Positions 44,801-47,800 of a DNA stretch of 64,000 bases are shown here, one piece after another. Position numbers: made by a program. This DNA comes from Escherichia coli. Its GTDB lineage: Bacteria; Pseudomonadota; Gammaproteobacteria; Enterobacterales; Enterobacteriaceae. How positions within the stretch are numbered: the first letter of the stretch is position 1; each line of letters opens with the position of its first letter. The DNA lies in the NCBI RefSeq assembly GCF_003334335.1, contig NZ_QOWQ01000030.1; one strand, given 5' to 3'.

Positions 44801-47800
44801 CGGATGATTACCCAGACATTGCATGAACTTCGCCGTCGCGGCGGTGGATTTGGTTTAGTTACCGCCTGTGCTGCCGGTGGGCTTGGCGCGGCAATGGTTC
44901 TGGAGGCGGAATAATGGAAATGACATCAGCGTTTACCCTTAATGTTCGTCTGGACAACATTGCCGTTATCACCATCGACGTACCGGGTGAGAAAATGAAT
45001 ACCCTGAAGGCGGAGTTTGCCTCGCAGGTGCGCGCCATTATTAAGCAACTCCGTGAAAACAAAGAGTTGCGAGGCGTGGTGTTTGTCTCCGCTAAACCGG
45101 ACAACTTCATTGCTGGCGCAGACATCAACATGATCGGCAACTGCAAAACGGCGCAAGAAGCGGAAGCTCTGGCGCGGCAGGGCCAACAGTTGATGGCGGA
45201 GATTCATGCTTTGCCCATTCAGGTTATCGCGGCTATTCATGGCGCTTGCCTGGGTGGTGGGCTGGAGTTGGCGCTGGCGTGCCACGGTCGCGTTTGTACT
45301 GACGATCCTAAAACGGTGCTCGGTTTGCCTGAAGTACAACTTGGATTGTTACCCGGTTCAGGCGGCACCCAGCGTTTACCGCGTCTGATAGGCGTCAGCA
45401 CAGCATTAGAGATGATCCTCACCGGAAAACAACTTCGGGCGAAACAGGCATTAAAGCTGGGGCTGGTGGATGACGTTGTTCCGCACTCCATTCTGCTGGA
45501 AGCCGCTGTTGAGCTGGCAAAGAAGGAGCGCCCATCTTCCCGCCCTCTACCTGTACGCGAGCGTATTCTGGCGGGGCCGTTAGGTCGTGCGCTGCTGTTC
45601 AAAATGGTCGGCAAGAAAACAGAACACAAAACTCAAGGCAATTATCCGGCGACAGAACGCATCCTGGAGGTTGTTGAAACGGGATTAGCGCAGGGCACCA
45701 GCAGCGGTTATGACGCCGAAGCTCGGGCGTTTGGCGAACTGGCGATGACGCCACAATCGCAGGCGCTGCGTAGTATCTTTTTTGCCAGTACGGACGTGAA
45801 GAAAGATCCCGGCAGTGATGCGCCGCCTGCGCCATTAAACAGCGTGGGGATTTTAGGTGGTGGCTTGATGGGCGGCGGTATTGCTTATGTCACTGCTTGT
45901 AAAGCGGGGATTCCGGTCAGAATTAAAGATATCAACCCGCAGGGCATAAATCATGCGCTGAAGTACAGTTGGGATCAGCTGGAGGGCAAAGTTCGCCGTC
46001 GTCATCTCAAAGCCAGCGAACGTGACAAACAGCTGGCATTAATCTCCGGAACGACGGACTATCGCGGCTTTGCCCATCGCGATCTGATTATTGAAGCGGT
46101 GTTTGAAAATCTCGAATTGAAACAACAGATGGTGGCGGAAGTTGAGCAAAATTGCGCCGCTCATACCATCTTTGCTTCGAATACGTCATCTTTACCGATT
46201 GGTGATATCGCCGCTCACGCCACGCGACCTGAGCAAGTTATCGGCCTGCATTTCTTCAGTCCGGTGGAAAAAATGCCGCTGGTGGAGATTATTCCTCATG
46301 CGGGGACATCGGCGCAAACCATCGCTACCACAGTAAAACTGGCGAAAAAACAGGGTAAAACGCCAATTGTCGTGCGTGACAAAGCCGGTTTTTACGTCAA
46401 TCGCATCTTAGCGCCTTACATTAATGAAGCTATCCGCATGTTGACCCAAGGTGAACGGGTAGAGCACATTGATGCCGCGCTAGTGAAATTTGGTTTTCCG
46501 GTAGGCCCAATCCAACTTTTGGATGAGGTAGGAATCGACACCGGGACTAAAATTATTCCTGTACTGGAAGCCGCTTATGGAGAACGTTTTAGCGCGCCTG
46601 CAAATGTTGTTTCTTCAATTTTGAACGACGATCGCAAAGGCAGAAAAAATGGCCGGGGTTTCTATCTTTATGGTCAGAAAGGGCGTAAAAGCAAAAAACA
46701 GGTCGATCCCGCCATTTACCCGCTGATTGGCACACAAGGGCAGGGGCGAATCTCCGCACCGCAGGTTGCTGAACGGTGTGTGATGTTGATGCTGAATGAA
46801 GCAGTACGTTGTGTTGATGAGCAGGTTATCCGTAGCGTGCGTGACGGGGATATTGGCGCGGTATTTGGCATTGGTTTTCCGCCATTTCTCGGTGGACCGT
46901 TCCGCTATATCGATTCTCTCGGCGCGGGCGAAGTGGTTGCAATAATGCAACGACTTGCCACGCAGTATGGTTCCCGTTTTACCCCTTGCGAGCGTTTGGT
47001 CGAGATGGGCGCGCGTGGGGAAAGTTTTTGGAAAACAACTGCAACTGACCTGCAATAAGAAGGTCAAAGCTATATGAATCCGCGCTGAATGGCGGAGTGT
47101 TGGTCAAAATGTAAACGCATATTGACTATACTTACGCCATTGAGGTAAAAAACAGCGTTTCATTCGGTGAATGGATAAGGCACAATGCCGGCCACCGTTT
47201 TCTTTCTCTGGTTTCAGATGAAAGAAAACGGGCGAATCTGGTTAACAAAAGCGGTGCAATATGCAAGTTTTTATCATGCGTCACGGCGACGCAGCCCTCG
47301 ATGCCGCCAGTGATTCCGTTCGTCCTCTGACCACTAATGGTTGTGACGAATCTCGCCTGATGGCGAACTGGCTGAAAGGTCAAAAAGTGGAAATCGAACG
47401 CGTTCTGGTGAGCCCGTTCCTGCGAGCCGAGCAAACACTGGAAGAAGTAGGGGATTGTCTGAACCTGCCTTCCAGTGCAGAAGTTCTGCCGGAGTTAACG
47501 CCCTGCGGCGATGTTGGTCTGGTCAGTGCCTATTTGCAGGCGTTGACCAATGAAGGTGTTGCTTCGGTACTGGTGATCTCTCACTTACCGTTAGTCGGGT
47601 ATCTGGTTGCCGAGTTATGTCCGGGCGAAACGCCGCCTATGTTTACCACCTCGGCCATTGCCAGCGTAACGCTTGATGAAAGCGGAAACGGCACATTCAA
47701 CTGGCAGATGAGCCCGTGTAATCTGAAGATGGCAAAAGCTATCTGATGAGTTCCAAATTATGCCCAATGAGGTAGATTCATTGGGCATAATTGCTCATCA

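What the first reader, a model, noticed from the sequence alone, without database searches (positions are those of the whole stretch)
47195..47231. 11-12-bp stem-loop without a U-tract in the sixA leader, 30 bp upstream of the start
cgttttctttc-(13 nt loop)-gaaagaaaacg forms a strong hairpin between the fadJ stop and the sixA ATG but has no U-run on either strand. It may be an RNase processing or stability element, or a Rho-independent pause site separating fadIJ from sixA expression, rather than a simple terminator.
Basis: seen in the sequence. Interest (0 to 1): 0.2.

Follow-up and report, generated by a model that had tools for sequence, protein, structure and literature searches.

The report
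Conserved stem-loop in sixA mRNA leader
The inverted repeat is a real RNA hairpin inside the untranslated leader of the E. coli sixA mRNA: related bacteria keep its shape but not its sequence, and a short leader RNA ends just after it, so it is an uncharacterised but fairly ordinary RNA-end-forming element and not the boundary between fadIJ and sixA.

Summary
The hairpin exists exactly where reported (47195-47231). It has 12 perfect pairs plus 4 inner pairs, a GUUU loop and no U-run, and it is far beyond chance. The window is E. coli and the fadJ-sixA spacer is identical to K-12.

Published mapping changes the context. The sixA start site is at 47157/47158, so the hairpin is +39 to +75 of a ~104-nt sixA leader. 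The fadIJ 3' end lies upstream at 47144.

Term-seq 3' ends sit 7 and 9 nt after the stem: 47240 in LB at OD 2.0 and 47238 in M63. Start site and ends together imply an ~82-84-nt leader RNA.

Across 80 distinct Enterobacteriaceae leaders the flanks are almost invariant. The hairpin changes sequence and length but always folds. Compensatory changes are numerous, including three in one E. coli strain. The sense strand folds better in 78 of 80 cases.

Best reading: a terminator-like hairpin that forms or protects the 3' end of the leader RNA. The end is probably made by cleavage or Rho-type termination downstream, then trimming back to the stem. A weak attenuator is the main rival.

No Rfam family matches. 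It is a new member of a known kind, of modest interest.

The parts
47195..47231 (+). P3 main stem-loop (the finding): 12 perfect pairs, then TCTG/CAGA with one bulged U, then a GUUU loop. It spans +39 to +75 of the sixA leader.
   Evidence: The structure is kept in 80 distinct Enterobacteriaceae leaders, with compensatory changes.
47188..47241 (+). Extended P3. A predicted outer helix CCGG (47188-47191) / CUGG (47238-47241) closes an internal loop around the main stem.
   Evidence: Predicted. Both strands are invariant, so there is no covariation for or against it (helix 2).
47238..47240 (+). In vivo RNA 3' ends at 47238 (M63, OD 0.4) and 47240 (LB, OD 2.0), which are 7 and 9 nt after the stem.
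   Evidence: Term-seq, Adams et al. 2021 (PMC7815308), supplementary files 1 and 3: K-12 coordinates 2456835 and 2456833, minus strand.
47157..47158 (+). sixA transcription start sites.
   Evidence: SMRT-Cappable-seq, Yan et al. 2018 (PMC6131387), supplementary file 4: operon b2340, start sites 2456916/2456915, reverse strand.
47122..47151 (+). Inferred sixA promoter: -35 TTGACT (47122-47127), an 18-nt spacer, and -10 TAAAAA (47146-47151).
   Evidence: The position fits the mapped start site and both hexamers are invariant across genera. The consensus scan did not call it because the -10 lacks the final T.
47157..47194 (+). Nearly invariant 5' domain of the leader. It holds a 5'-terminal helix P1, which has two possible registers, and the small GGCA/UGCC hairpin.
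   Evidence: One P1 pair covaries (AU 47, GU 23, GC 4).
47232..47246 (+). Linker between P3 and the start-region hairpin, predicted to be mostly unpaired. It runs into the ACA (47245-47247) reported as cleaved by MazF 16 nt before the AUG.
   Evidence: Mean unpaired probability is 0.65. The cleavage comes from Table 1 of the MazF-regulon paper, PMC5001579.
47247..47272 (+). Predicted start-region hairpin P4, AAAAGC-GG-UGCA-AUA-UGCA-A-GUUUUU. It holds the Shine-Dalgarno sequence GCGGUG (47251-47256) and the AUG (47261-47263).
   Evidence: -5.1 kcal/mol on its own. Positions -27 to +30 are invariant, including the third positions of codons 1-10.
47082..47146 (+). Context: a long imperfect hairpin after fadJ. 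The fadIJ 3' end at 47144 sits at its foot, and its 3' arm overlaps the sixA -35.
   Evidence: Term-seq in LB at OD 0.4 gives 2456929 with Rho score 1.02 ('No') and intrinsic-terminator score 6.7.

Best explanation
The repeat is stem-loop P3 of the sixA 5' leader RNA. It is selected only for pairing in the sense transcript, and it works as a terminator-like hairpin that forms and protects an RNA 3' end. Transcripts start at 47157/8. Some read through to give sixA mRNA. Others end 7-9 nt after P3 and give an ~82-84-nt leader RNA with a helix at each end, seen in stationary phase and in minimal medium. Shown here: the hairpin, its selection, the start site and the 3' ends. Inferred: that the start site and the 3' ends belong to one molecule, and how those ends arise. 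Because no real U-tract follows the stem, I think the primary end is made downstream. It would come from endonuclease cleavage in the unpaired linker, or from Rho-type termination in the early open reading frame when translation is poor. 3'-to-5' exonucleases would then trim back until the stable stem stops them.
For: The hairpin is real and non-random. It lies in the sixA leader, 38 nt downstream of the mapped start site. Term-seq 3' ends lie at 47240 (LB OD 2.0) and 47238 (M63), and not in LB OD 0.4. Every distinct Enterobacteriaceae leader examined folds one hairpin at this spot, between blocks that are almost invariant (75 leaders, median -22.5 kcal/mol; four more genera). The six basal pairs, counted on a sequence-only alignment, are 88% paired and four of them change on both sides. 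Over all 19 tested pairs 95% of cells pair, against 26-53% when the partner is slid. Gap-free clusters give 23 compensatory pairs among 285, with 4.4% non-canonical cells. E. coli strain 2EC1 carries three fully compensatory pair changes in the stem and no other change in the leader. The sense strand folds better in 78 of 80 cases, and 15% of its pairs are G-U. There is no U-tract in Escherichia or Salmonella. The linker after P3 is predicted to be unpaired, and an ACA at its 3' edge was reported cleaved on MazF over-expression. The sixA 3' end shows the same design: a perfect 15-bp hairpin without a U-tract, a 3' end just after it, and a Rho region downstream.
Against: No experiment shows the 82-84-nt species as one molecule, because the start site and the 3' ends come from separate studies. 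No nuclease-mutant or Rho-inhibitor data exist for these ends. The bicyclomycin data are for LB OD 0.4 only, and they call no Rho region in the leader or the early reading frame. Ends 7-9 nt after a stem fit intrinsic termination just as well. Most genera have a half-U-rich tail, AUUCUGGUU. A barrier role does not explain why the flanks are invariant. The 3' ends could be by-products of decay with no function.
Confidence: 0.45

Rival explanations
1. P3 is a weak, non-canonical intrinsic terminator, that is, a transcription attenuator. RNA polymerase itself releases a condition-dependent fraction of transcripts 7-9 nt after the stem, perhaps with help from NusA or NusG, and this tunes sixA expression.
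For: The 3' ends are 7 and 9 nt after the stem, which is the classic geometry. Conserved structure with free sequence is typical of terminators. In 56 of 79 distinct hairpins the tail has at least 5 U in 8 nt, from the conserved UUCUGGUU. The ends are detected only in some conditions. Full-length sixA transcripts from the same start site show that any termination is partial.
Against: The E. coli tail GCGAAUCUG has 2 U in 8 nt and would form a G/C-rich hybrid, and the Salmonella tail is AAACUGG. The terminator scan is negative on the sense strand in E. coli, Enterobacter and Kluyvera. Most of the stem is A/U-rich in E. coli. No alternative anti-terminator pairing was found: the arms vary freely, and the 5' domain has no special complementarity to the downstream region.
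Confidence: 0.25
2. P3 is a structural module of the leader. It works as a spacer or insulator that keeps the invariant 5' domain apart from the start region, keeps the leader structured against Rho loading, or sets the context for a regulator that binds the invariant start region. On this view the mapped 3' ends are incidental decay intermediates.
For: Only pairing is selected, not sequence. Positions -27 to +30 are invariant, including the third positions of codons 1-10, which suggests control at translation initiation. A start-region hairpin is predicted, and three A-R-N triplets (AACAAAAGC) sit just upstream of the Shine-Dalgarno sequence.
Against: No partner RNA or protein is known. sixA does not appear in the held supplement of a Salmonella Hfq interactome study. 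No specific pairing of the 5' domain with the start region was found. The idea makes no prediction that I could test here.
Confidence: 0.15
3. P3 is an RNase III processing site, and the mapped ends are cleavage products.
For: With the outer helix, P3 stacks about 20 bp in E. coli and a median of 18 pairs across species. The ends at 47238 and 47240 lie in the 3' strand of the predicted outer helix.
Against: The ends are outside the main stem. No matching staggered end on the 5' strand is listed. The outer helix has no covariation support. The RNase III target tables could not be read.
Confidence: 0.05
4. One reading: the hairpin ends or pauses fadIJ transcription and so insulates sixA from the upstream operon.
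For: It lies between the fadJ stop and the sixA ATG.
Against: The sixA start site is 38 nt upstream of it, and fadIJ is a separate operon. The fadIJ 3' end maps to 47144, at another hairpin. The mapped ends do not match the pause consensus.
Confidence: 0.03
5. A DNA-level element: a palindromic operator for a dimeric regulator, or a repeated extragenic palindrome.
For: It has perfect dyad symmetry in E. coli.
Against: The arm sequences are replaced between genera while pairing is kept. G-U pairs make the sense strand fold better in 78 of 80 cases, which would not matter for DNA. There is one copy per genome in all 5,426 complete E. coli genomes.
Confidence: 0.01

Closest known systems
Stem-loops that mark processed 3' ends of Rho-terminated or cleaved transcripts (Dar and Sorek 2018, as cited in the Adams 2021 main text)
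   Same: A stable hairpin with no U-tract and an in vivo 3' end a few nucleotides downstream. The sixA 3' end in this same window has this design, with a Rho region beyond it.
   Different: Here the hairpin sits in a 5' leader, 29 nt before the start codon. Dependence on Rho or on exonucleases was not tested for these ends.
Canonical intrinsic (Rho-independent) terminators and 5'-leader attenuators
   Same: A hairpin whose structure is conserved while its sequence drifts, 3' ends 7-9 nt after the stem, and a position in a leader with partial read-through.
   Different: There is no contiguous U-tract (2 U in 8 nt in E. coli). The stem is largely A/U-rich in E. coli. No anti-terminator alternative was found.
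Short RNAs derived from 5' UTRs that were found by 3'-end mapping (Adams et al. 2021, PMC7815308)
   Same: The same data set lists these ends as 'orphan, upstream ORF' for sixA. The expected product runs from the mRNA start site to an end inside the leader.
   Different: sixA is not discussed in that paper's text. No Northern blot, chaperone binding or target is known for this RNA.
5'-leader stem-loops that stabilise mRNA, of the ompA type (my own knowledge, not tested here)
   Same: A structured enterobacterial leader with a helix that starts at +1 (P1).
   Different: That role fits P1, not P3. P3 is internal and cannot shield the downstream mRNA from 5'-end-dependent decay.

Membership tests
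Canonical intrinsic terminator | A stable stem-loop in the nascent RNA | tested here: met
   -23.9 kcal/mol, z = -4.2.
Canonical intrinsic terminator | A U-rich tract directly 3' of the stem | tested here: not met
   The E. coli tail is GCGAAUCUGG, with 2 U in 8 nt. The scan is negative in E. coli, Enterobacter and Kluyvera. Most genera have an interrupted UUCUGGUU, which is marginal.
Canonical intrinsic terminator | RNA 3' ends about 7-9 nt after the stem in vivo | tested here: met
   Ends at 47238 and 47240, with the stem ending at 47231 (published data).
Canonical intrinsic terminator | Release by RNA polymerase alone, independent of Rho | not testable with these tools
   The bicyclomycin data exist only for LB OD 0.4, where these ends were not called.
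Hairpin-protected processed 3' end (Rho-dependent or cleaved transcript) | A 3' end just downstream of a stable hairpin that lacks a U-tract | tested here: met
Hairpin-protected processed 3' end (Rho-dependent or cleaved transcript) | A primary end made downstream by Rho or an endonuclease, followed by exonuclease trimming | not testable with these tools
   Only indirect support exists: an unpaired linker, MazF cleavage at the ACA 16 nt before the AUG, and C/G ratios of 1.2-1.3 in 78-nt windows starting at 47252-47292. No Rho region is called there in LB OD 0.4.
5'-UTR-derived small RNA | A discrete stable transcript from the mRNA start site to an end inside the leader | tested here: inconclusive
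   The start site and the 3' ends come from different studies. No single-molecule or Northern evidence was found.
5'-UTR-derived small RNA | Chaperone binding or trans targets | tested here: inconclusive
   sixA is absent from the held supplement of one Salmonella Hfq interactome study. A full-text search for interactome-style names found nothing. The E. coli interactome tables were not available.
Hairpin-stabilised transcription pause (his-type) | A 3' end with pyrimidine at -1 and G at +1, and G at -10, about 10-12 nt after a hairpin (consensus recalled from my own knowledge) | tested here: not met
   The mapped ends are C47238, followed by U, and G47240, followed by G. They lie 7-9 nt after the stem. 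U47239/G47240 would fit the consensus but is not a mapped end.
Curated RNA families (Rfam 15) | A match to a covariance model | tested here: not met
   No hit overlaps 47059-47300, even at E up to 10.
RNase III substrate | About two helical turns of duplex, with staggered cuts inside the stem | tested here: inconclusive
   About 20 stacked pairs only if the unsupported outer helix forms. The ends lie outside the main stem. The target tables are not held.
Repeated extragenic palindrome or operator palindrome | Many copies per genome, or arm sequence conserved for protein recognition | tested here: not met
   One place per genome in 5,426 genomes. The arms are replaced between genera while pairing is kept.

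The most novel reading that the evidence does not exclude
The whole sixA leader is an unannotated regulatory RNA conserved across the Enterobacteriaceae. It comprises the invariant 38-nt 5' domain, the structure-only hairpin P3 and the invariant start region. It would be either a cis-acting attenuator whose invariant parts bind a still unknown RNA or protein, or a small RNA or sponge released from the 5' UTR. Either way it would couple the level of the phosphohistidine phosphatase SixA to growth phase or nutrient state.
Probability: 0.25. Interest if true: 0.55.

Novelty: new member of a known kind. Interest (0 to 1): 0.33.

Why it matters
SixA removes phosphate from histidine phosphotransfer proteins. 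From my own knowledge these include the ArcB phosphotransfer domain and the nitrogen-PTS carrier NPr. I found no description of how sixA itself is controlled.

The analysis shows that its leader is one of the most constrained non-coding stretches in this neighbourhood. Positions from about -150 to +30 are nearly invariant across genera, apart from one hairpin that keeps only its pairing. Published 3'-end maps already hold condition-dependent RNA ends at that hairpin, and nobody has discussed them.

That makes a concrete, cheap experiment possible. It also corrects the operon picture: fadIJ ends before the sixA promoter. If the leader RNA proves to be only a decay intermediate, the finding is an ordinary structured leader.

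Tried and rejected
Rfam at a permissive threshold gave nothing at the locus.

RNAalifold on the MAFFT alignment did not recover P3, because the variable stems are not in structural register. I therefore used per-sequence folds, basal-pair counts and gap-free clusters instead.

An upstream ORF starting at ATG 47172 is rejected. The ATG is missing in several genera (GAGCGG, GAACGG, GTCGGG and GTACAG variants). A C insertion shifts the frame, and the hairpin length varies. The 42-codon ORF at 47185-47313 fails for the same reasons.

An anti-Shine-Dalgarno switch was considered, because the 5' arm CACCG could pair with the Shine-Dalgarno CGGUG. In E. coli nine nucleotides are complementary. That extension is not conserved, and the stem base itself differs in Atlantibacter, Siccibacter and Buttiauxella.

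Pairing between the 5' domain and the start region is no better than with shuffled sequence.

A sigma-54 promoter reading of GGCACAATGCC is rejected on spacing, by inspection.

Sources that gave no usable data:
- Cappable-seq 2016: no entry for the locus.
- The Dar and Sorek 3'-end tables and the Altuvia RNase III tables: not held.
- The Thomason start-site paper: not held.
- A Salmonella interactome supplement: no sixA.
- Two literature searches: nothing relevant.

The homologue search reached only Enterobacteriaceae, at 77% identity or more. I could not test Yersinia, Serratia or more distant families.
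Full report
**Observation.**
The sequence at 47195-47231 reads CCGTTTTCTTTC-TCTGGTTTCAGAT-GAAAGAAAACGG. The repeat finder reports 12-nt arms with 100% complementarity, 13 nt apart. As RNA, the 13-nt 'loop' adds a 4-bp helix (UCUG/CAGA) with one bulged U and leaves a GUUU loop. A 57-nt piece folds at -23.9 kcal/mol, z = -4.2, and none of 200 dinucleotide shuffles folds as well. The consensus scan finds no terminator-like or promoter-like site on either strand between 46800 and 47900. Perfect inverted repeats of 12 bp or more with 3-20-nt loops occur 6 times in the window. The mean is 0.05 in first-order Markov simulations of the window.

**Where it lies.**
The window is E. coli. The 202-nt fadJ-sixA spacer (47059-47260) is present once in each of 5,426 complete genomes and is 100% identical to K-12 MG1655. 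With sixA at 2456327-2456812 on the K-12 minus strand, the K-12 coordinate equals 2504073 minus the window coordinate.

Two published data sets then fix the transcript map.
- SMRT-Cappable-seq (Yan et al. 2018, PMC6131387, supplementary file 4) lists operon b2340 (sixA alone) with start sites 2456915 and 2456916. These are window 47158 and 47157. It lists fadIJ (b2342|b2341) as a separate operon starting at 2460509.
- The sixA start site sits 6-7 nt after an invariant TAAAAA (47146-47151). That hexamer lies 18 nt after an invariant TTGACT (47122-47127).
- Term-seq (Adams et al. 2021, PMC7815308, supplementary files 1 and 3) lists exactly one 3' end in this spacer per growth condition.
  - LB at OD 0.4: 2456929 = window 47144, with Rho score 1.02 ('No') and intrinsic-terminator score 6.7.
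  - LB at OD 2.0: 2456833 = window 47240.
  - M63 at OD 0.4: 2456835 = window 47238.

The 47144 end sits at the foot of a long imperfect hairpin, 47082-47146. It lies upstream of the sixA start site, so it is the fadIJ end.

The finding's hairpin is therefore +39 to +75 of a ~104-nt sixA leader, and RNA ends map 7 and 9 nt after its stem. The start site and those ends together imply an ~82-84-nt leader RNA. That paper's main text does not mention sixA.

**Comparative evidence.**
I fetched the sixA locus from 80 species representatives of Enterobacteriaceae. I added four more genera through their SixA proteins and four divergent E. coli strains. fadJ-sixA synteny and a spacer of about 190-215 nt are general.

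The alignment shows a striking pattern.
- From about 47108 to 47194, the promoter and the first 38 nt of the leader are almost invariant.
- The ~35 nt before the ATG are invariant.
- So are the first ten codons, including their third positions. Third positions further into the gene fall to about 0.5-0.7 majority.
- Between these blocks the hairpin region changes completely in sequence and in length (42-65 nt).

Every one of 75 distinct sequences nonetheless folds into a single hairpin at that spot, with median -22.5 kcal/mol and median z = -2.5. Atlantibacter, Siccibacter, Buttiauxella and Klebsiella pneumoniae do the same.

Covariation supports the pairing.
- On the sequence-only MAFFT alignment, the six basal pairs are 88% paired, and four of them change on both sides (for example CG 39, UG 19, UA 16). 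Over all 19 tested pairs 95% of cells pair, against 26-53% when the partner column is slid.
- Gap-free clusters of equal length give 285 pairs. Of these, 23 have compensatory double changes and 47 have one-sided changes. Only 4.4% of cells are non-canonical. There are 27 distinct sequence/length clusters.
- E. coli strain 2EC1 differs from the window at nine sites in 242 nt. Six of them form three fully compensatory pairs in the stem: 47199/47227 U-A to C-G, 47200/47226 U-A to G-C, and 47202/47224 C-G to G-C. Nothing else in the leader changes.
- The sense strand folds better than the antisense strand in 78 of 80 hairpins (means -22.7 and -16.3 kcal/mol). G-U pairs make up 15% of its pairs.

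Selection therefore acts on pairing in the sixA-sense RNA. It does not act on a DNA palindrome or a protein operator.

**What it is not.**
- It matches no Rfam family.
- It is single-copy.
- It is not a canonical intrinsic terminator. The E. coli tail GCGAAUCUGG has 2 U in 8 nt and the Salmonella tail is AAACUGGUUA. Most genera carry an interrupted AUUCUGGUU or CUUCUGGUU. The scan does not call it in E. coli, Enterobacter or Kluyvera.
- The mapped ends do not fit the pause consensus: C47238 is followed by U, and G47240 is followed by G.
- A conserved upstream ORF is excluded by loss of the ATG in several genera and by frame-shifting indels.
- I found no switch-like alternative pairing. The 5' domain pairs with the start region no better than shuffled sequence does. 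The resemblance of the stem base to a Shine-Dalgarno/anti-Shine-Dalgarno pair is lost in more distant genera.

**Rest of the leader.**
Folding of the whole leader predicts four elements.
- A helix starting at or near +1 (P1). RNAalifold prefers a register with one covarying pair.
- A small GGCA/UGCC hairpin.
- P3.
- A modest start-region hairpin, 47247-47272 (-5.1 kcal/mol). It holds the Shine-Dalgarno sequence GCGGUG and the AUG.

The linker 47232-47246 is predicted to be mostly unpaired. Three A-R-N triplets (AACAAAAGC, 47244-47252) span its 3' end and the first bases of the start-region hairpin. The MazF-regulon study lists sixA mRNA as cleaved at an ACA 16 nt before the AUG, which corresponds to 47245-47247.

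**Mechanism.**
The shown facts are these: a selected sense-RNA hairpin in the leader, a start site 38 nt upstream, condition-dependent RNA ends 7-9 nt downstream, and read-through to full-length sixA mRNA.

I commit to P3 as a terminator-like hairpin that forms and protects the 3' end of an ~83-nt leader RNA. The step that creates the end is inferred. I favour cleavage in the linker, or Rho-type termination in the early reading frame, followed by exonuclease trimming that stalls at the stem (confidence 0.45). Three things point that way.
- The U-tract is absent in the very species where the ends were mapped.
- The linker is open and is known to be cleavable.
- The sixA 3' end uses the same design. 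It has a perfect 15-bp hairpin at 47756-47792 without a U-tract, an end at about 47795-47797, and a Rho region at about 47875.

The main rival is a weak attenuator (0.25). It is supported by the 7-9-nt geometry and by the half-U-rich tail of most genera. A purely architectural role in translation control (0.15) would explain the invariant start region, but it makes no testable prediction here. RNase III processing (0.05), the fadIJ-insulator reading (0.03) and a DNA-level element (0.01) are unlikely.

**Limits.**
- The leader RNA has not been seen as one molecule.
- The Rho-inhibitor data cover only LB at OD 0.4.
- The RNase E, RNase III and E. coli interactome tables could not be read.
- The species sample is related by descent, so shuffle statistics overstate independence. 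The compensatory changes within Escherichia and the slid-partner control are the most robust evidence.
- I could not sample beyond the Enterobacteriaceae.

**Verdict.**
It is wrong about what the hairpin separates. This is a new, uncharacterised member of a known kind of element, and the surprise is that it sits in a very highly conserved leader. Interest is modest (0.33). It would be higher if the leader proves to be a regulatory RNA.

Noticed in passing
window 47082-47146 (3' end at 47144): A long imperfect hairpin follows fadJ (-30 kcal/mol for 47059-47156, z = -4.3). The Term-seq fadIJ 3' end sits at its foot. It is followed by an A-run rather than a U-run, yet it scores 6.7 as an intrinsic terminator in the source data. 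Its 3' arm contains the sixA -35 hexamer, so the end of one operon and the promoter of the next overlap.
   Followed up: partly
window 47108-47194 and 47232-47290: The sixA promoter, the first 38 nt of the leader, the last ~30 nt before the ATG and the third positions of codons 1-10 are almost invariant across 80+ Enterobacteriaceae species. They are more conserved than the SixA protein itself (77-99% identity). No regulator is known to me.
   Followed up: partly
window 47756-47792 (3' end ~47795-47797; Rho region ~47875): A perfect 15-bp hairpin, AATTATGCCCAATGA/TCATTGGGCATAATT, lies just after the sixA stop and has no U-tract. A published 3'-terminus map places the sixA mRNA end just after it, and a bicyclomycin-sensitive region lies about 80 nt further on, before the yfcV fimbrial gene.
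   Followed up: partly
L087 (E. coli strain 2EC1, NZ_CP047571.1 1375865-1376106): This strain carries three fully compensatory base-pair replacements in the hairpin and no other change in the leader. That could be recombination from another Escherichia lineage or rapid compensatory evolution.
   Followed up: partly
window 47245-47247: The ACA in the linker matches the position listed for MazF cleavage of sixA mRNA, 16 nt before the AUG. Cleavage there would remove the whole structured leader.
   Followed up: partly
window 20576-20612, 37254-37286, 39831-39862, 41381-41409: There are four other perfect inverted repeats of 12-14 bp with short loops. 39831-39862 is flanked by A6 and T6, which looks like a two-way terminator. 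41381-41409 matches the hairpin in the Term-seq sequence listed for the fadL primary 3' end.
   Followed up: no
protein database hits P0001, P0003-P0005, P0007, P0039: Some database SixA entries are 173-223 aa instead of 161 aa. These are probably start codons called too far upstream, through the conserved leader.
   Followed up: no
L021 1384-1400, minus strand (equivalent to window ~47153-47169): The scan calls a weak terminator-like site on the antisense strand: a 5-pair stem and then TTTTTT, which is the complement of the sixA -10 A-run. About 0.5 such hits are expected by chance.
   Followed up: no
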